Below are positions 44,978-54,972 of a stretch of DNA of 63,627 bases, piece by piece. The stretch's first letter is position 1. The number at the start of each line of letters is the position of its first letter. The DNA is taken from IMG/VR virus record IMGVR_UViG_3300021341_000078, positions 1 through 63,627 of that record; one strand, given 5' to 3'. A model generated the notes under the pieces. The model did no database searches and had not been told where the DNA came from. It saw only the letters and a list, made by a program, of their open reading frames with translations. Source of the DNA: a virus. Taxonomy: Duplodnaviria > Caudoviricetes. The translations under genes were made by a program, and so were the position numbers.

Positions 44978-45874
44978 ATGAACGTACTCTCATTGTTTGA
45001 TTGAATATCTTGTTGACAGATTGCGCTTGAACGCGCAGGAATAAAAGTAGATAAGTATTTCGCAAGCGAGATAGACAAGTATGCTATAGCCGTTACGCAA
45101 GCTAACTATCCCCACACCATACAAATAGGCTCAGTAGAAAACTGGAGGGAACGAAATTTGCCAAATATCGACTTAGTAATAGGAGGCTCTCCTTGCCAGT
45201 GATTCAGTATAGCGTGACAGTGACTAAACTTTGACGACCCTAGAAGCAAATTGTTCTTTACAATGGTAGACATTATAAATCAGTACCAGCCAAAGTACTT
45301 TTTGCTAGAAAATGTTAAGATGAAAAAAGAACGAGAAGATATTATAACTGAACATATGGAAGTAGAACCTATAGAGATAAATAGCGCCCTCGTGTCCGCT
45401 CAAAGTAGAAAAAGACTGTATTGGACTAATATAGAAGGAGTGACACAGCCAGACGATAAGGGGATATTATTAAGGGATGTGCTAGAACCAAACAACAAAG
45501 AACATCACCGCATAAGACCCATGAGGTTAATCACAAACTCAAAGAACAGAAAAAAAACTTTATGTAATCAAATAGGCATAGCTACTGACATAAGCCAAAA
45601 CTACGAGATTATGACAAGAGTATATAGCGTACTAGGCAAATGTCCAACAATAACAAAAATAGAGGGAGGGAATAGGGAGCCGAAGGTCGCTGTCAATAAC
45701 AACTCTTGGAGAAGGGTGACTCCTTTGGAGTGTGAAAGACTACAAAATGTACCTGATAATTATACCTTTGTCCCCTTTTGAAAAAGAATGATGAGTAACT
45801 CGCAAAGATACAAGATGCTTGGGAACGGGCGGACAGTGAACGTAATAAGTCACATATTCTGAAACATTAAATAA
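44978..45874 (+). CDS. DNA cytosine-5 methyltransferase; recoded
   Basis: MNVLSLFDG(TGA)ISCG, GGSPCQG(TGA)FS, LLENV, MLGNGW(CGG)TV. Confidence 0.93.
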
Positions 45875-45958
45875 AAACCTCTCCAGTAAGCGTGCAACAG
45901 AGGCTTGAGAGGTGTTACTGACTACAGTGTATTTAACCTTTACTTTTTTACAAGTGTG

Positions 45959-46591
45959 ATGCCCAAAAAAGCAAAGATAGAGCCTATAAAAATAAACATG
46001 ATGCAAGTTATTGAAGAAGTTGAACCCAAGATATACAAAGGGAAAAAGTTCAGAAGAGTTAAGTGCTTATGTGATTGCTGAAACATAAAAATAGTTAGAC
46101 GGTATGAACTCAAGCGCTGATGTATACAAAGTTGTTGATGCATTCTAAAGAGATGAATGAATACAACACATGGGCTATCCAAGAACCCTATTTATATAAA
46201 ATGGAATGGGATGATGGCTAGATGTTACAAAGAATCAAGCAGCTCTTATAATAGGTATTGAGCATTGTGAGTAAGAGTTTGCAAAGAGTGGCACAATGTC
46301 GAAAACTTTATAAAAGATATGTACCCATCGTATCTAGAACACCTTAAAGTTCACGGTAAACCGAACACAACACTAGAACGCAAGGACAACTCTAAACGAT
46401 ATTCAAAAGAAAATTGTAGACGAGCAACGATAATAGAGCAAGCAAGAAATAGAAAGTCTAACATCATGTATAAGTGAAAGTGTTTGACTGAACGATGTGA
46501 AGAACTATGACTTAATTACAAAAGGACGCACCAAAGAATAAAGAGAGACTGAAAGAATATAGAGGATGTTTTATTTGTTTTCAGTAACTAA
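45959..46591 (+). CDS. Phage HNH-like endonuclease (CxCDCG/SCGC type); recoded
   Basis: KCLCDCGN...SCGC...TLERKDN...ENCRW(CGA)AT..EQARNR. Confidence 0.85.
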
Positions 46592-46944
46592 TGAGAGAGA
46601 TTAAATTTCGTTTACGAGACTGAAAACAGATGCATTATGATGACCCAGATCGGCATCCCTGGGATTTGTGTAACCCTTATGAAGGACTAGCTGATCATCT
46701 AGTTCTAATGCAATACGCCTGACTCAAAGACTGTAACGATAAAGAGATTTACGAGGGGGATATATTGCAGCGCAAGTGAACCGATGAAAGGTTTTCTGTA
46801 ACATTTAGGGATTGAGCCTACTATACAGAATGGCACGCACGAGCAGTTACAACAGAACCGCAACTATGAGAATACTTAGAAGAGTTTGATTGCTTTGTTA
46901 TTTGAAACGTATCAGAAAACTATGATTTAGTTTATGACTACTAA
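46591..46944 (+). CDS. YopX-family protein; recoded
   Basis: MREIKFRLW(CGA)DG...LMQYAGLKD...EIYEGDIL...VIGNV. Confidence 0.9.
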
Positions 46945-47791
46945 CCATGAGACCCATAGTAGAAAAGATTGTGTACTGTCCATGAACATGAAACGAATAT
47001 GTAGCTTATGTAAGGGGAAATGGGAAGAACTTCAAGTGCCATAAAGATATTGAATATGGACGGTGCATGTGAAATAAAAACGTAAAAAAGAAAATACCGC
47101 TTGAGACCTTATTCAAAATTGATGCTATGACTTCTGTGTGTCCTTGACCTAAAAGTATGCGACATGAACAACTGATTGGAGTGTATTCAATTTTTGATCC
47201 AGATGAGAAGCGGTAAAACTGTGTGACGAGAAGAGCTATATTTTATGCTTTATACTAAATTTACTATGACTACTATTTTTGTATGTGTTGTGTACTCAGT
47301 GTTCTGAGGAGCACTAACAATTGACCCTACCTATTCTACAAGATGGTTTTATGATCACGAGATGTGAACTATCCCAGTAGAGGAATGTGTGGAGATAACA
47401 ATTTCGGAATACATTGGCGCACAACTTTGACCTATTTGGGAACAGATAGATGAGGAGCTTATCAAGCAAGGTACAGATCCAGACTCTATAACACTTGAGT
47501 AGATTGTTTTAGTTTTTAAAGAAAATAATGATTGTCAACTACAGAGCAAACTACTACGAGCTAAAACCAGTGAAAGTAGAGTCTGAGTTTGAGGCTCATA
47601 TAGTCCTAGAGGAAGAAAACCAAAGCTACCTGTTGTGGTCGTTCATTAAAATACTTTTATTTATAGTATTACTACTTATTGTGCTTGTTGCTTTCCTAGT
47701 GAAAGAGTTAGTGTTTTAGTGATATGGGGGAGTAGTGATCTTGGAACTAAAACTTTTTGTTGGAGATATTGACTTTATAAAATATATGTTT

Positions 47792-47799
47792 TATATTTG
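47792..47799 (+). promoter_or_regulatory. Bacteroidota -7 element TATATTTG; further copies at 48302-48309 (+) and 61206-61213 (-)
   Basis: TAnnTTTG consensus upstream of standard-code genes. Confidence 0.6.
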
Positions 47800-47902
47800 A
47801 ACGACCTAATAAATCATTCTCCTATATCCCTGCTCGAACTCGCTTACCAAATTGACCCAATTCGCGCCTAACGTAGGTGCAGGTATTTAAAACATTGTAG
47901 GG

Positions 47903-48259
47903 ATGTCAGTGAAAAAAGTACTTAAGAGAAAAGTAGGAAGCGTGAACGTTTACGAACTCACAGAAAAAGAACTAATAAGCCTAGAAAAGGGCTTGCCAAA
48001 GATTCTCACGATTCTGAGTCCAGTCCTTGGGTGCTTCGCCCTTGCTACCTCCTTCATACGAGATATTCTCAACAATAAACTCTCCCAACAAGATTTTATC
48101 TTATTACTTGTTACGTCTAGTTTCTTTATTGCCCTTGGGTTCTTTGTCCTGTTTTATAATCTAGTTATAAAGAGAGAAAAGCAGACATTATTATCCCAAA
48201 TACGCAAGAAAAGATCCAGATCTAACAATTCAATTGCATCTCAGAAAAGACCTAAATAA
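47903..48259 (+). CDS. Two-TM membrane protein, paralog A (standard-code moron)
   Basis: SVNVYELTEKELISLEKG...SPVLGC...TSFIRD. Confidence 0.75.
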   Translation: MSVKKVLKRKVGSVNVYELTEKELISLEKGLPKILTILSPVLGCFALATSFIRDILNNKLSQQDFILLLVTSSFFIALGFFVLFYNLVIKREKQTLLSQIRKKRSRSNNSIASQKRPK

Positions 48260-52993: not shown

Positions 52994-53491
52994 ATGGAAG
53001 AGTTAATATCCCACGTAGATGAGAAAGATGAGCTTATAGATTACAGACCTAGATCAGAGTTTTACAAGAGTGAGATGATACACAGGACGGTATGAGTCTT
53101 GCTGTTCAACTCACTGTGACAGATGCTTATCCAGAAAAGATCTGAGAACAAAAAAGAGTCTCCTTGATTACGGTCCTGCTCAGTATCGTGAGGCGTTGGA
53201 ATAGAAGATTATGAGACCGCTGCAAAGAGAGAGACGAAAGAAGAGCTGGGTATAGACGTAGAAGTAAGAAAGTTGTTCAAGTACAAAAGAAACAGGAAAT
53301 ACTCTAACCCTTACTTCAAAGAAGTTTACGAAGCTACACACGACTGACCACTAACAATCCAAGAAGAAGAGATAGCTGAAATACTACGAGCAGACGTTGA
53401 ACGGATAGAGAAAGATATACAAGAGAACCCACACAAGTATACAGAGTGATTCAAAAAGCTTTTACAGATTTACTTACAAGATGGACGTTAA
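52994..53491 (+). CDS. NUDIX hydrolase (IDI-like); recoded
   Basis: IHRTV..LLFNSLGQMLIQKRS...PG(TGA)LW(CGG)S...AAKRETKEELGI. Confidence 0.85.
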
Positions 53492-53870
53492 AAAGATTAA
53501 TGAAGAAATAAAGAAGTTATGATCAACAGATAATATTTCTGACTGACACCACACATTCAAGGAGCTATACGAACATAGACACGCACTGCTTATATCCTTA
53601 ATCAACAACACTAATCGAGACTGGATAAAAAGCTACATACACTACGACTATGAGATGTGGAAATGATGGTTTATAGTTCAGGGAATGTGTCCTACACAGA
53701 ATGACCAGTTCAACCAAATATCCTACCATTTACCAAACATGTATCGAGACAAAGTACGCTGTAAGGAAATAGCGAAAGCAGAGCGACGAGATTGACACAC
53801 AGCAGAGGATGTTGTATTCAGACTTATGCAACACAACACTAAGCCCCTTGGAGTTTTAGGCAACTTTTAG
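53481..53870 (+). CDS. WDGH-motif phage protein; recoded
   Basis: SDGHHTFKELYEHR...QISYHLP...W(CGA)DG(TGA)HT. Confidence 0.8.
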
Positions 53871-53883
53871 ATCTCTACCTACA

Positions 53884-54246
53884 ATGATCAGAATAGTTCT
53901 ACAGTGAAGACCACTATCCACTCAACACATCTACTGACAACGCGGTAGGATTAGATATATGAAGAAAGAAGCAAAACTCCTGAAAGCATCATATATCGAA
54001 CAAGCGAGGTCACAATACGCATGAAAGTGTCTCGAAACACCGCTTTCCGTAGAGATCAAAATCTATTTCTGAGACAGAAGGAAGCGTGACTGGGATAATT
54101 ATCACAAGCTGACGATGGATGCCTTAGAATGAATTTTATACAAGGACGATAGCCAAATTCAGATTGCACTCGTTACGAAAGCGTACGACAAGGAAAACCC
54201 ATGCACTGTTTTAGACTTTATAGAGCTATGTGACATAGGAAAATAA
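53884..54246 (+). CDS. rusA: RusA-like Holliday junction resolvase; recoded
   Basis: RKRDWDNYHKLTMDALEGILYKDDSQI. Confidence 0.85.
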
Positions 54247-54518
54247 AGCTGAATACACAGAAGATAAAATACTGATGTAACTTCTGTGAGGAGTGTGGGT
54301 GTAAGAAGCATCGACTACCGTTCCAGATCCACCACGTAGTCTACAGATCTGAGGCTTGACGACACAAGAACATAAACCACCCAGATAACCTATTGATAGT
54401 ATGTGCGCCTTGCCACCAGAAGATACACTCTAACAAGAAGGCGTATCAAGCAAAACGAGTAAAAAAGAGAGACTTATGGAGAGTGTTCCCAGATGTGTTA
54501 CATGACAAGTACAAGTAG
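54228..54518 (+). CDS. HNH endonuclease; recoded
   Basis: CEECG...IHHV...NLLIVCAPCHQKIH. Confidence 0.75.
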
Positions 54519-54543
54519 AAAGTTTTATTACCTAAACTTTTTT

Positions 54544-54972
54544 ATGAAAGAGAGGCGAGTTCCAGTCACTTGATATGAGTGAAGTTATGAAGTGAGCAAT
54601 TTATGAAGAGTTAGATCCCTAGATAGATATTCTACTTCACACCAACGCGATTCTCTAGGAAATTTCTACACTAGACGCGTTAAACAAACTTGAAGGATGC
54701 TAAAGCAACAAGTCAACAACTGAGGTTATGCAAGAGTAAGACTTATGAAAAATGGGAAGTGAAAATATACTATGGTGCATAGAATAGTATACTTCTCATT
54801 CAATAAAGTCCCTTTAGCTAAAAACAACAACATTGGTATATGTTGTATTTGCCACAAAGACGACAACAGACTTAACAATAGCATTAATAACCTTTTCTAC
54901 GGTACGTACAGAGATAATGTTAGAGACATGATGAAAAAATGAAGAGAAAACTTCTTTTGAAGAAACAATTAG
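54544..54972 (+). CDS. NUMOD4-HNH homing endonuclease; recoded
   Basis: ERW(CGA)VPVTGYEGSYEVSNLGRVRS...VHR...CHKDDNRLNN..NNL. Confidence 0.88.

What the first reader, a model, noticed from the sequence alone, without database searches (positions are those of the whole stretch)
44978..54972. Second reassignment: CGA/CGG read as tryptophan
CGR codons sit at family-conserved Trp positions: YopX KFRLWD (46615), MTase LGNGWTV (45830), ENCRWAT, TnpB PWLK and DVSWG (51685), NUDIX PGLW, WDGH (53787), NUMOD4 ERW (54556), terminase SRWFI. This narrows the lytic host to Absconditabacteria rather than a generic table-25 Gracilibacterium. Unlike stop readthrough, it cannot be rescued by a leaky ribosome.
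Basis: partly seen in the sequence, partly recalled or inferred. Interest (0 to 1): 0.92.

Follow-up and report, generated by a model that had tools for sequence, protein, structure and literature searches.

The report
Prophage written in two genetic codes
A virus integrated in a marine Saprospiraceae bacterium writes its virus-building genes in the rare Absconditabacteria code (TGA = glycine, CGA/CGG = tryptophan) but its integration genes in the standard code, which suggests it needs a second, differently coded host to multiply.

Summary
In TGA-containing genes, CGA/CGG sit on tryptophan or aromatic columns. For terminase plus WDGH (9 codons), log-odds are W +26.1 bits against R -4.4, while AGA/AGG/CGT/CGC score as Arg and TGA as Gly. 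Reading CGR as W raises Pfam scores by 48 bits in total.

1. The record holds two codes. In its TGA-free genes (integrase, relaxase/ATPase module, membrane-protein inserts, flank amine oxidase) CGA/CGG behave as arginine, for example R in 6 of 6 orthologues.

2. The element is a prophage of standard-code Saprospiraceae (Bacteroidota), not of a candidate-phylum bacterium.
- Its tRNA-Ala is identical only to Saprospiraceae genomes.
- Its integrase has homologues in 49 of 151 Saprospiraceae genomes.
- A related prophage with the same layout lies inside a 234-kb standard-code Saprospiraceae contig. There CGG encodes an invariant integrase Arg (23/23) but falls on terminase Trp columns.

Neither prophage carries a decoding tRNA, and that host has tRNA-Arg ACG and CCG.

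Inference, not shown: productive growth needs an Absconditabacteria-type translation system. The junctions between the two kinds of gene are confirmed by contigs from three further seawater runs.

The parts
44978..45874 (+). C5 cytosine DNA methyltransferase, recoded (7 TGA, 3 CGR)
   Evidence: Pfam DNA_methylase 157.2 bits. CGG at 45830 aligns to W in DNMT3B and V in HhaI. Codon 59 aligns to K,K. Reading W changes the score by -1.4 bits.
45905..46591 (+). HNH endonuclease-like gene, recoded (9 TGA, 4 CGR)
   Evidence: phrog_374 rises from 175.7 bits (R) to 186.6 (W). Three further PHROG families rise by +6.2 to +10.0 bits.
46591..46944 (+). YopX-family gene, recoded (3 CGR, one at 46615)
   Evidence: Pfam YopX 52.6 to 55.4 bits. 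phrog_98 81.9 to 86.8 bits. PDB alignments did not cover the N-terminal motif.
48870..49574 (+). DUF6291 / replication-initiation O-like gene, recoded (3 CGR)
   Evidence: Pfam DUF6291 87.1 to 93.0 bits. phrog_19415 91.3 to 98.0 bits.
49541..50407 (+). DnaB-like helicase, recoded (12 TGA, 3 CGR)
   Evidence: Pfam DnaB_C 86.9 bits. Codon 240 aligns to Y in 3 solved DnaB sequences, codon 35 to T.
50848..51891 (+). TnpB (IS605 OrfB) gene, recoded (8 TGA, 4 CGR)
   Evidence: Pfam OrfB_IS605, HTH and TNB domains. Codons 64 and 280 align to W,W; codon 36 to R,R; codon 58 is variable.
52994..53491 (+). NUDIX hydrolase, recoded (6 TGA, 3 CGR)
   Evidence: Pfam NUDIX 52.9 (R), 52.5 (X), 64.5 (W) bits. 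Codon 132 is W in YfcD and IDI.
53481..53870 (+). WDGH-domain gene, recoded (4 TGA, 4 CGA)
   Evidence: Pfam WDGH 85.8 to 92.4 bits. Codon 89 is W in 24/27, codon 103 W in 19/27; codons 46 and 102 lie on variable columns.
54493..54972 (+). NUMOD4 + HNH_3 endonuclease, recoded (8 TGA, 1 CGA at 54556)
   Evidence: Pfam NUMOD4 53.8 (R), 49.3 (X), 60.4 (W) bits.
37633..38970 (-). Large terminase, recoded (15 TGA, 5 CGR). This is the main test gene.
   Evidence: 150 homologues. CGR columns: W 86/146; variable; W 96/150; W 141/150; L51/W45/F20. All 8 conserved-R columns use non-CGR codons.
9436..34499 (-). Recoded lysis and virion block: holin-peptidase, tail fibres, tape measure, Dit-like protein, head genes, portal at 33174-34499
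   Evidence: TGA counts per ORF. Pfam and PHROG hits. DUF1353 51.5 to 58.0 bits, CBM_5_12 20.6 to 23.0 bits with W.
4762..9455 (.). TGA-free module: 674-aa coiled-coil protein (-), DUF87/T4SS coupling-protein-like ATPase 6792-8549 (+), Replic_Relax protein 8565-9455 (+)
   Evidence: 0 TGA in 1555 codons. Pfam hits. Replic_Relax 32.5 to 31.2 bits with W. The only relative (61% identity) has R at all 3 CGA sites; its codons are unknown. The same module lies in the G275 prophage.
35400..37610 (+). Opposite-strand insert genes: GYF_2-domain protein (1 TGA as called; 0 from the ATG at 35421) and PqiA-like membrane protein (TGA-free)
   Evidence: Contigs from other runs bridge into the recoded terminase and portal genes.
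39066..40136 (+). TGA-free multi-pass membrane protein (4 CGA)
   Evidence: All 4 CGA lie on polar or variable columns. W occurs once in 32 cells across those 4 columns. Relatives at 62-66% identity carry R at 2 (P0029) and 2 (P0030) of the 4 sites.
61215..63627 (.). TGA-free end module: 177-aa protein (-), RadC-like JAB protein 61874-62335 (+), tyrosine integrase 62371-63627 (-)
   Evidence: Pfam Phage_integrase + Arm-DNA-bind_5, RadC. Integrase homologues in 49 of 151 Saprospiraceae genomes, best 46%. Its 3 CGR columns hold no W. Phage_integrase 41.0 to 38.4 bits with W.
4537..4611 (-). tRNA-Ala(GGC), the only tRNA in the record
   Evidence: ARAGORN and Rfam. The 74-nt sequence matches exactly in only 4 genome records, all Saprospiraceae or Lewinella MAGs.
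2287..3642 (+). Flavin amine oxidase. Standard-code gene with Saprospiraceae orthologues, probably host flank.
   Evidence: Pfam 271.9 (R) to 264.9 (W) bits. CGA442 = R in LSD1/LSD2 and in 6 of 6 Saprospiraceae orthologues at 49-59% identity. CGA57 = K4, D1, Q1.

Best explanation
The window is a roughly 54-59-kb temperate phage integrated in the chromosome of a marine Saprospiraceae bacterium (Bacteroidota, standard code). Its genome is split between two genetic codes.

About nine tenths of its ORFs are written in the code known from Absconditabacteria. These cover replication, nucleases, packaging, virion and lysis. In them TGA is glycine and CGA/CGG are tryptophan, while arginine uses AGA, AGG, CGT and CGC.

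A small set of genes contains no TGA and uses CGA/CGG as ordinary arginine. These are the integrase, a Replic_Relax + DUF87/coupling-protein-like ATPase module, RadC, and opposite-strand membrane-protein inserts.

Shown here:
- the meaning of the codons in each gene class;
- the integration context;
- the absence of any decoding tRNA in the element;
- the presence of normal tRNA-Arg(ACG) and tRNA-Arg(CCG) in the host of a related prophage.

Inferred, not shown: in the Saprospiraceae cell only the standard-code genes can be translated, so the prophage is locked by its code. The lytic programme would be translated faithfully only in a cell with Absconditabacteria-type decoding, that is tRNA-Gly(UCA), a Trp-accepting tRNA(UCG/CCG) and no competing Arg tRNA. 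The most likely such cell is an Absconditabacterium living with or on the Saprospiraceae host.
For: Code of the recoded genes:
- Treating TGA as sense raises total ORF length (>=100 aa, all six frames) from 32.9 to 81.1 kb.
- 68 of 76 ORFs in 9436-61100 hold TGA.
- In profiles built from homologues only, with the query masked: TGA (n=18) scores G +33.3 bits. CGR (n=9) scores W +26.1, R -4.4. AGA, AGG and CGT score best as R; the single CGC column is uninformative.
- Mean W fraction in CGR columns is 0.46, against 0.43 for TGG columns and 0.00 for other Arg codons.
- Changing R to W raises Pfam scores by +35.6 and +12.8 bits over 14 domains. PHROG scores rise by +10.9, +4.9 and +6.7.

Code of the TGA-free genes:
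- Log-odds W -6.1, R +4.2 (n=7).
- W lowers Amino_oxidase by 7.0, Phage_integrase by 2.6 and Replic_Relax by 1.3 bits.
- CGA442 is R in 6 of 6 orthologues.

Independent replicate, the G275:C15 prophage:
- It lies in a 234,384-bp contig. Code-11 ORF cover is about 0.9-1.0 and GC 0.48 outside roughly 8-57 kb, and 0.0-0.9 (11 bins, below 0.5 in 8) with GC 0.39-0.43 inside.
- The layout is the same.
- Terminase CGR falls on columns W 119/145, W 96/150, F 124/148, L/W/F and Y/F/L.
- Codon pairs with the window's terminase run CGR to TGG, TAC or TTC, never to AGR or CGY.
- Its integrase CGG339 lies on an R 23/23 column.

Control: a standard-code relative, L001, has 0 TGA, and its single CGA lies on an R 134/146 column.

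Host:
- tRNA-Ala is 74/74 identical only to 4 Saprospiraceae MAGs.
- Integrase homologues occur in 49 of 151 genomes of that family.
- A third, partial case is G152:C37.
- Flank genes have 40-59% orthologues in the family.

No decoders:
- The window has one tRNA (Ala) and the recoded part of the G275 element has none. Its only nearby tRNA, Leu(CAA), abuts the integrase at the element's edge.
- G275 has 30 distinct tRNAs, including Arg ACG and CCG and Trp CCA, with no UCA or UCG anticodon.

Not a chimera: contigs from 3 further runs bridge the junctions between TGA-free and recoded genes with 0 differences.
Against: - No Absconditabacteria genome, CRISPR spacer or co-occurrence could be examined, so the second host is inferred from the code alone.
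- The G275 MAG is incomplete (31 tRNA hits). A decoder tRNA elsewhere in the host, or on a helper element, is not excluded.
- Borges et al. (passages) report that only 35-40% of stop-recoded phages of standard-code hosts carry a detectable suppressor tRNA. Its absence is therefore not decisive for TGA.
- Some CGR codons in recoded genes sit on K/R or polar columns: MTase 59 K,K; TnpB 36 R,R; WDGH 102 K/E; DnaB 35 T. Reading W lowers the lysin scores.
- Evidence for CGR = Arg in the window's own TGA-free phage genes rests on variable columns plus one relative of unknown codons. The clean cases are the flank gene and the G275 integrase.
- Shine-Dalgarno scarcity fits both candidate hosts.
Confidence: 0.6

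Rival explanations
1. The phage completes its lytic cycle inside Saprospiraceae and switches the cell's code itself, as proposed for TAG/TGA-recoded gut phages. The decoders would not be in the element: tRNAs or other factors on another replicon, in an unassembled part, or in the host.
For: - TAG-recoded prophages with stop-free integrases exist in standard-code Prevotella and Oscillospiraceae, and most recoded phages lack a detectable suppressor tRNA (Borges preprint, passages).
- The integration sites, integrase type and insert genes fit Saprospiraceae.
- The G275 MAG is incomplete (31 tRNA hits).
- CheckV rates the record 57% complete.
Against: - Two sense codons would have to be taken from resident tRNA-Arg(ACG) and tRNA-Arg(CCG).
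- No tRNA, synthetase or release factor was found in either element.
- 89-95% of ORFs are recoded, including replication genes. Borges et al. report about 90% for code-25 phages of code-25 hosts and 26-71% for phages of standard-code hosts.
- The exact pair TGA = Gly plus CGA/CGG = Trp is the Absconditabacteria code.
Confidence: 0.2
2. Dead-end capture. An Absconditabacteria phage genome was recently picked up by, or recombined into, a Saprospiraceae integrative mobilisable element. The recoded genes are silent cargo that will decay, and there is no two-host life cycle.
For: - The TGA-free integrase + relaxase + ATPase module looks like an integrative mobilisable element.
- Liu et al. 2023 (section 8) report code-25 phages that are also hit by spacers of non-CPR bacteria. 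This shows that such DNA meets other phyla.
Against: - The same composite layout occurs in two elements whose terminases are only 56-58% identical, plus a third partial one. All have long intact recoded ORFs.
- TGA-free insert genes lie inside the recoded block on the opposite strand.
- The sequence is identical in 4 runs from 4 samples and studies.
Confidence: 0.13
3. Artefact. Either the record is an assembly chimera of a CPR phage and Bacteroidota DNA, or the CGR/Trp coincidences are chance and CGR is Arg throughout.
For: - The record is a metagenome assembly.
- Some CGR codons align to K/R.
Against: - Contigs from three other runs bridge four block junctions with 0 differences.
- G275 shows the same mosaic inside a 234-kb contig.
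- 5 of 9 CGR codons lie on W-top columns, against 0 of 24 other Arg codons.
- The standard-code control L001 puts its CGA on an R column.
Confidence: 0.03

Closest known systems
Genetic code of Absconditabacteria (table 25 plus CGA/CGG = Trp; Shulgina & Eddy 2021, eLife, PMC8629427; passages read)
   Same: TGA = Gly. CGA and CGG both = Trp. AGA is the dominant Arg codon. CGR codons are rare but approach the frequency of TGG.
   Different: - Here the code is seen in a virus, not a cell.
- It holds in only part of the element.
- The element lies in a standard-code Bacteroidota chromosome.
- The tRNA(UCG/CCG) and tRNA(UCA) genes that support the cellular inference are absent from the element.
Code-25 phages and prophages of Absconditabacteria/Gracilibacteria (Borges et al. 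preprint 10.1101/2021.08.26.457843, passages; Liu et al. 2023 mBio PMC10746230, sections 7-8)
   Same: Dense in-frame TGA read as Gly. About 90% of genes are recoded (68 of 76 here). The gene content is that of a tailed phage.
   Different: - Those prophages lie in code-25 genomes. This one and its relatives lie in Saprospiraceae.
- Neither paper, in the parts I read or searched, mentions CGA/CGG or arginine.
Garnet and Topaz TAG-recoded prophages in standard-code Prevotella/Oscillospiraceae (Borges et al., passages)
   Same: A prophage in a standard-code host. Lytic genes are unreadable in the host's code. The integrase is free of the recoded codon and sits next to a host tRNA. Code is proposed to act as a lysis-lysogeny gate.
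   Different: - Those elements recode one stop codon (TAG = Gln). Here a stop and two sense codons are changed.
- A far larger share of genes is recoded here.
- No suppressor tRNA is present.
- The code matches that of a specific other phylum.
[quoted passage not shown] 2023, section 8)
   Same: Suggests phages that interact with hosts of different codes. 5 of 9 such Gracilibacteria phages matched Bacteroidetes spacers. 2 of 5 such Absconditabacteria phages were clearly code 25.
   Different: - Most of those phages avoid TGA altogether and so are compatible with both codes.
- Here the genome is partitioned into two mutually exclusive codes.
- Physical integration in the non-CPR partner is seen directly.

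Membership tests
Absconditabacteria-type genetic code (Shulgina & Eddy 2021) | TGA read as glycine | tested here: met
   In terminase + WDGH, 16 of 18 TGA columns have G as top residue, log-odds G +33.3 bits. In the G275 terminase, 10 of 13.
Absconditabacteria-type genetic code (Shulgina & Eddy 2021) | CGA read as tryptophan | tested here: met
   Log-odds for CGA (n=7) are W +16.9, R -2.7. Columns: W 141/150, 24/27, 19/27. TnpB codons 64 and 280 are W,W. This holds only in TGA-containing genes.
Absconditabacteria-type genetic code (Shulgina & Eddy 2021) | CGG read as tryptophan | tested here: met
   Window terminase: W 86/146 and 96/150. G275 terminase: W 119/145 and 96/150. 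Exception: TnpB CGG36 aligns to R,R.
Absconditabacteria-type genetic code (Shulgina & Eddy 2021) | Matching tRNAs: tRNA(UCA) of Gly type and tRNA(UCG/CCG) of Trp type | tested here: not met
   Neither is present in the window, in the G275 prophage, or among the 30 distinct tRNAs of the G275 MAG. The putative second host could not be examined.
Stop-recoded prophage of a standard-code host (Garnet/Topaz type, Borges et al.) | Integrated in a standard-code chromosome, with an integrase free of the recoded codon | tested here: met
   G275:C15 flanks have code-11 ORF cover of 0.9-1.0. The integrases of the window and of G275 are TGA-free.
Stop-recoded prophage of a standard-code host (Garnet/Topaz type, Borges et al.) | Partial recoding (26-71% of genes), with early genes and code-switch genes in standard code | tested here: not met
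   68 of 76 ORFs (52 of 55 of those >=100 aa) carry TGA, replication genes included. No tRNA, release factor or synthetase was found.
Code-25 phage of a code-25 host (Borges et al.; Liu et al.) | About 90% of genes have in-frame TGA | tested here: met
   68 of 76 = 89%.
Code-25 phage of a code-25 host (Borges et al.; Liu et al.) | Link to an Absconditabacteria/Gracilibacteria host by prophage context or CRISPR spacers | tested here: not met
   The prophage context is Saprospiraceae. Spacer links could not be tested with these tools.

The most novel reading that the evidence does not exclude
This is a temperate virus, or phage-plus-mobilisable-element hybrid, with a two-host life cycle gated by genetic code. 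It would rest as a prophage in Saprospiraceae, where only its standard-code genes can be read: integrase, relaxase/DNA-translocase-like module, RadC and membrane proteins. It would build virions only after its DNA reaches an Absconditabacterium that lives on that bacterium, because only there do TGA (Gly) and CGA/CGG (Trp) have the meaning its lytic genes require. It would also be the first virus seen to use a sense-codon reassignment, with the same codon meaning Arg and Trp in different genes of one genome.
Probability: 0.4. Interest if true: 0.97.

Novelty: new variant of a known kind. Interest (0 to 1): 0.86.

Why it matters
Sense-codon reassignment in bacteria was inferred only in 2021 and only for cells. 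Here it appears in viral genes, and one DNA molecule gives the same codon two meanings.

- It shows that public protein libraries hold mistranslated relatives. 16 of 150 terminase homologues carry W at Gly columns or R at Trp columns.
- Single-code gene callers will mis-annotate such elements.

If the two-host reading is right, it offers a concrete genomic handle on which bacteria Absconditabacteria live on, a long-standing open question for uncultured candidate-phyla bacteria. It would also show how DNA moves between partners with incompatible codes.

Even under the conservative reading, this extends the 'code as lysis-lysogeny lock' idea from one stop codon to a stop plus two sense codons.

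Tried and rejected
- Attachment-site repeats: no convincing direct repeat pairs the tRNA-Ala with the integrase end. The tRNA flanks in the four Saprospiraceae loci are not syntenic with the window.
- Close relatives: IMG/VR gave one terminase relative (L001) and none for the relaxase. Two JGI metagenome scans gave none.
- Plasmid tblastn of the coupling-protein-like ATPase gave only hits of 26.5% identity or less, from scattered taxa.
- Promoters: near-consensus sigma-70 sites (>=11 of 12) number 3 in the recoded part against 2.0 expected, and 31 of 100 Markov simulations reach that count. The tool's own scan gave 57 against 55.9 +/- 8.3. The Bacteroidetes-type TAnnTTTG motif is rare. There is no signal either way.
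- Shine-Dalgarno use: motifs are scarce upstream of recoded genes (6% and 2%), TGA-free genes (10-12%) and host genes (3-4%). Absconditabacteria are also listed as SD-scarce (PMC10783764 Table 4, passage). This cannot separate the hosts.
- 'Bilingual' stop codons: TGA-free genes end in TGA in 1 of 21 cases, against 12 of 83 host-flank genes. The difference is not significant.
- PDB alignments did not reach the N-terminal motifs of YopX and NUMOD4.
- RNA evidence: no RNA holder was listed.
- Small TGA-poor ORFs were scanned for a repressor, without result.
- Literature: searches listed no paper describing CGA/CGG = Trp in a phage, or a code-25 prophage in a standard-code genome. One search listed none linking Saprospiraceae with Absconditabacteria. 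The supplementary tables of Liu et al. and Borges et al. could not be seen and may list related phages or hosts.

Full report
**What the record is.** The window is a whole IMG/VR record classed as a provirus, 63,627 bp, rated 57% complete. Treating TGA as sense raises the summed length of ORFs of at least 100 aa (all six frames) from 32.9 kb to 81.1 kb. A greedy set of 90 ORFs holds 395 TGA, 142 TGG, 78 CGA, 30 CGG and 509 AGA in 18,986 codons.

TGA is not spread evenly. 58 ORFs with two or more TGA carry it at 31 per 1000 codons. Ten ORFs of at least 100 aa have none in 3,635 codons:
- amine oxidase, 2287-3642
- a 674-aa coiled-coil protein
- a DUF87/T4SS-coupling-protein-like ATPase
- a Replic_Relax protein
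- a PqiA-like protein
- a multi-pass membrane protein, 39066-40136
- ORF 47903-48259
- a 177-aa protein
- RadC
- the integrase

Between 9436 and 61100, 68 of 76 ORFs (52 of 55 of those >=100 aa) carry TGA. The recoded genes are ordinary tailed-phage genes: terminase, portal, head, Dit-like tail protein, tape measure, holin-peptidase, methylase, DnaB-like helicase, NUDIX, HNH nucleases, YopX and TnpB.

**Checking the observation.** I tested the meaning of these codons in three ways.

(a) Paired family scores. I translated the same genes with CGR as R, X or W.
- In ten genes of the finding's region, the best Pfam domain scores changed from R to W as follows (X values):

| Domain | Change (bits) |
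|---|---|
| DNA_methylase | -1.4 |
| YopX | +2.8 |
| DUF6291 | +5.9 |
| DnaB_C | +0.3 |
| HTH_OrfB | -0.7 |
| Cas12f TNB | +3.9 |
| NUDIX | +11.6 |
| WDGH | +6.6 |
| NUMOD4 | +6.6 |

- In ten recoded genes elsewhere: Peptidase_C39_2 -1.1, DUF1353 +6.5, CBM_5_12 +2.4, portal -0.4, Terminase_3 +5.4.
- With PHROGs: HNH phrog_374 +10.9, YopX phrog_98 +4.9, phrog_19415 +6.7, peptidase phrog_16701 -3.9.
- Putting the rarest residue at random Arg sites should lower scores. The net gain is about 48 bits in Pfam alone.

(b) Column tabulation.
- I collected 150 terminase homologues from the 1.84-billion-protein library and 27 WDGH homologues. I built profiles from homologues only and aligned the query with CGR and TGA masked.
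- Terminase CGR columns: W 86/146; variable (Y19, S19, K18, T18); W 96/150; W 141/150; L51/W45/F20.
- WDGH CGR columns: variable; W 24/27; K9/E8; W 19/27.
- Over the nine codons the log-odds are W +26.1, Y +9.3, R -4.4 bits. The mean W fraction is 0.46, against 0.43 for TGG codons.
- For 24 AGA/AGG/CGT/CGC codons in the same genes, W is never the top residue and R or K is top in 18.
- TGA (n=18) has G on top in 16 columns, G +33.3 bits.
- W is second at +21.1 bits, a side effect of database relatives translated with TGA = W. 14 of 150 homologues carry W at conserved Gly columns, and 6 of these also carry R at conserved Trp columns.
- All 8 conserved-Arg columns of the terminase are encoded by non-CGR codons.

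(c) Solved structures, which come from standard-code organisms.
- TnpB codons 64 and 280 align to W,W; codon 36 to R,R.
- NUDIX codon 132 aligns to W,W; codon 60 to L/A/W.
- MTase codon 285 aligns to W/V; codon 59 to K,K.
- DnaB codon 240 aligns to Y,Y,Y; codon 35 to T.

Taken together, of 21 CGR codons with an alignment:
- 8 lie on clear Trp columns;
- 4 lie on aromatic or hydrophobic columns that include W or Y;
- 3 lie on K/R-type columns;
- 6 lie on other variable columns.

A minority of sites do not fit.

**The standard blocks read the same codons as arginine.** The same paired test on TGA-free genes never favours W:
- Amino_oxidase 271.9 to 264.9
- Replic_Relax 32.5 to 31.2
- Phage_integrase 41.0 to 38.4
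- Arm-DNA-bind_5 25.2 to 25.5
- Domains without a CGR inside are unchanged.

Further evidence:
- CGA442 of the amine oxidase aligns to the R of '...SG[VL]REA' in LSD1 and LSD2. It also aligns to R in 6 of 6 Saprospiraceae orthologues, encoded AGA, AGA, CGT, CGC, CGG, CGC.
- The four CGA of the membrane protein and the three CGR of the integrase lie on polar or variable columns. W occurs once in about 100 cells. Log-odds are R +4.2, W -6.1.
- The only relative of the relaxase has R at all three CGA sites, though its codons are unknown.

**Where the element lives.**
- The only tRNA, Ala(GGC) at 4537-4611, has exact 74-nt matches in just four records among the species-representative genomes. All four are Saprospiraceae or Lewinella MAGs.
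- The integrase carries the Arm-DNA-bind_5 domain. It has homologues in 49 of 151 sampled genomes of that family, the best at 46% identity.
- The amine oxidase has orthologues of 49-59% identity there.
- Searching 301 genomes of the family with the terminase gave 11 matches. One, G275:C15, is 56% identical and has 13 in-frame TGA.

That contig is 234,384 bp. In its first 100 kb, code-11 ORF cover is 0.9-1.0 and GC 0.48 outside about 8-57 kb. Inside, cover is 0.0-0.9 (below 0.5 in 8 of 11 bins) and GC 0.39-0.43.

The element there has the same plan:
- recoded lytic genes;
- TGA-free inserts, including an Eco57I-like methylase that ends in a TGA stop;
- a TGA-free Replic_Relax gene plus a DUF87-like ATPase;
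- an integrase abutting tRNA-Leu.

A flank gene has 40-54% orthologues in at least 36 of the 54 matching genomes, out of 121 searched. A third case, G152:C37, starts inside a low-GC stretch better covered under code 25, with a homologue of window gene 43797-44219. It continues through a 46%-identical integrase into standard-code DNA.

**The replicate shows the two meanings most cleanly.**
- In the G275 terminase the five CGR codons lie on columns Y44/F20/L19, W 119/145, W 96/150, F 124/148 and L51/W45/F20.
- Aligned codon pairs between the two terminases are CGG-TGG, TGG-CGA, TGG-CGG, CGA-CGG, CGG-CGG, CGA-TAC, CGA-TTC and TTC-CGG. None pairs with AGR, CGY or AAR.
- In the integrase of the same prophage, CGG339 lies on a column that is R in 23 of 23 homologues. 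CGA309 lies on R 16/23.
- A standard-code relative from IMG/VR, L001, has no TGA, and its single CGA lies on an R 134/146 column of the same profile.

**Not an assembly artefact.** Four seawater runs from four samples and studies hold the 33-41 kb stretch. Contigs from three runs other than the likely source bridge the junctions with no differences:
- 36022-38291: PqiA-like gene to terminase
- 37391-38011
- 37997-40211: terminase to membrane protein to the next recoded gene
- 32379-35166

**How it could work.**
- Neither element encodes a decoder. ARAGORN at normal and relaxed settings, and Rfam down to E = 1, find only the tRNA-Ala in the window. The recoded part of the G275 element has none, and its one nearby tRNA, Leu(CAA), abuts the integrase at the element's edge.
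- No synthetase or release factor appeared among the families found.
- The G275 MAG yields 31 tRNA hits and 30 distinct genes. These include Arg ACG, CCG, CCT and TCT, Trp CCA, and Gly GCC and TCC. None has anticodon UCA or UCG.

In such a cell TGA would stop translation (15 times in the terminase), and CGA/CGG would be read as Arg. Shulgina & Eddy infer exactly this pair of changes, TGA = Gly and both CGA and CGG = Trp, for Absconditabacteria. For some Gracilibacteria they infer only CGG = Trp (passages).

I therefore infer that the lytic genes evolved under, and need, Absconditabacteria-type decoding. The TGA-free genes would serve the resident state in Saprospiraceae. This step is an inference.

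**Relation to what is in print.**
- Borges et al. (preprint, passages) describe TAG-recoded prophages in standard-code hosts with stop-free integrases. They treat code-25 phages as phages of code-25 hosts, with about 90% of genes recoded.
- Liu et al. [quoted passage not shown] They do not mention CGA, CGG or arginine.
- My searches listed no paper on a sense-codon reassignment in a phage or on a code-25 prophage inside a standard-code genome. Supplements were closed.

**Limits.**
- The tabulation covers 21 of the 80 CGR codons in recoded ORFs, plus summed scores for others.
- The clean Arg cases are a flank gene and the related prophage's integrase, not the window's own phage genes.
- Several CGR sites in recoded genes look Arg-like. 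These could be recent imports, ambiguous decoding or merely variable columns.
- The Shine-Dalgarno and promoter tests gave no discrimination.

Noticed in passing
window 51957-51996 (+): A weak RAGATH-18 RNA match (31.3 bits, below the 44.9 cut-off, E 0.059) lies 66 nt downstream of the TnpB stop. It may be part of the TnpB guide (omega) RNA or the transposon end.
   Followed up: no
Terminase homologues P0037-P0186 (protein library): 16 of 150 public terminase representatives carry W at conserved Gly columns and/or R at conserved Trp columns. These are relatives with the same code, stored mistranslated with TGA = W and CGR = R.
   Followed up: partly
G275:C15 22742-24391 (locus L018 2742-4391): An Eco57I/N6_Mtase-like methylase inside the recoded prophage ends in a TGA stop, while neighbouring genes use TGA as a sense codon. 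TGA therefore has two incompatible uses within a few kb.
   Followed up: partly
window 47769-47799 and 48279-48309; 21820-21848 and 34557-34585: Two pairs of 29-31-nt repeats lie in intergenic positions. The first pair reads as TTGAC[TA]-17-TATATT and also fits TAnnTTTG. The second lies upstream of the portal gene and of a tail gene. They are possible promoters or operators.
   Followed up: partly
window 32127-32386 (in gene 31847-33094): A GAA/TCT-rich repeat encodes a long acidic (E-rich) linker in the head protease/scaffold-like protein. Contigs of all four runs break at 32322-32378.
   Followed up: no
window 1-627 (-): An ORF with a run of 16 threonines has a weak mucin-like hit. It lies in the left flank beside the amine oxidase.
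   Followed up: no
G161:C18 about 32-37 kb (loci L086/L087): A small low-GC island (0.37) lies next to tRNA-Pro and tRNA-Ser. It holds a fragment 54-56% identical to window gene 41782-42192 and shows 2 in-frame TGA in a weak terminase match. It may be a remnant of a related element.
   Followed up: partly
window recoded genes; G275 and G152 host flanks: Shine-Dalgarno motifs are nearly absent upstream of recoded, TGA-free and host genes alike (2-12%). A published table lists both Bacteroidota and Absconditabacteria as SD-scarce, so translation start signals would suit both candidate hosts.
   Followed up: yes
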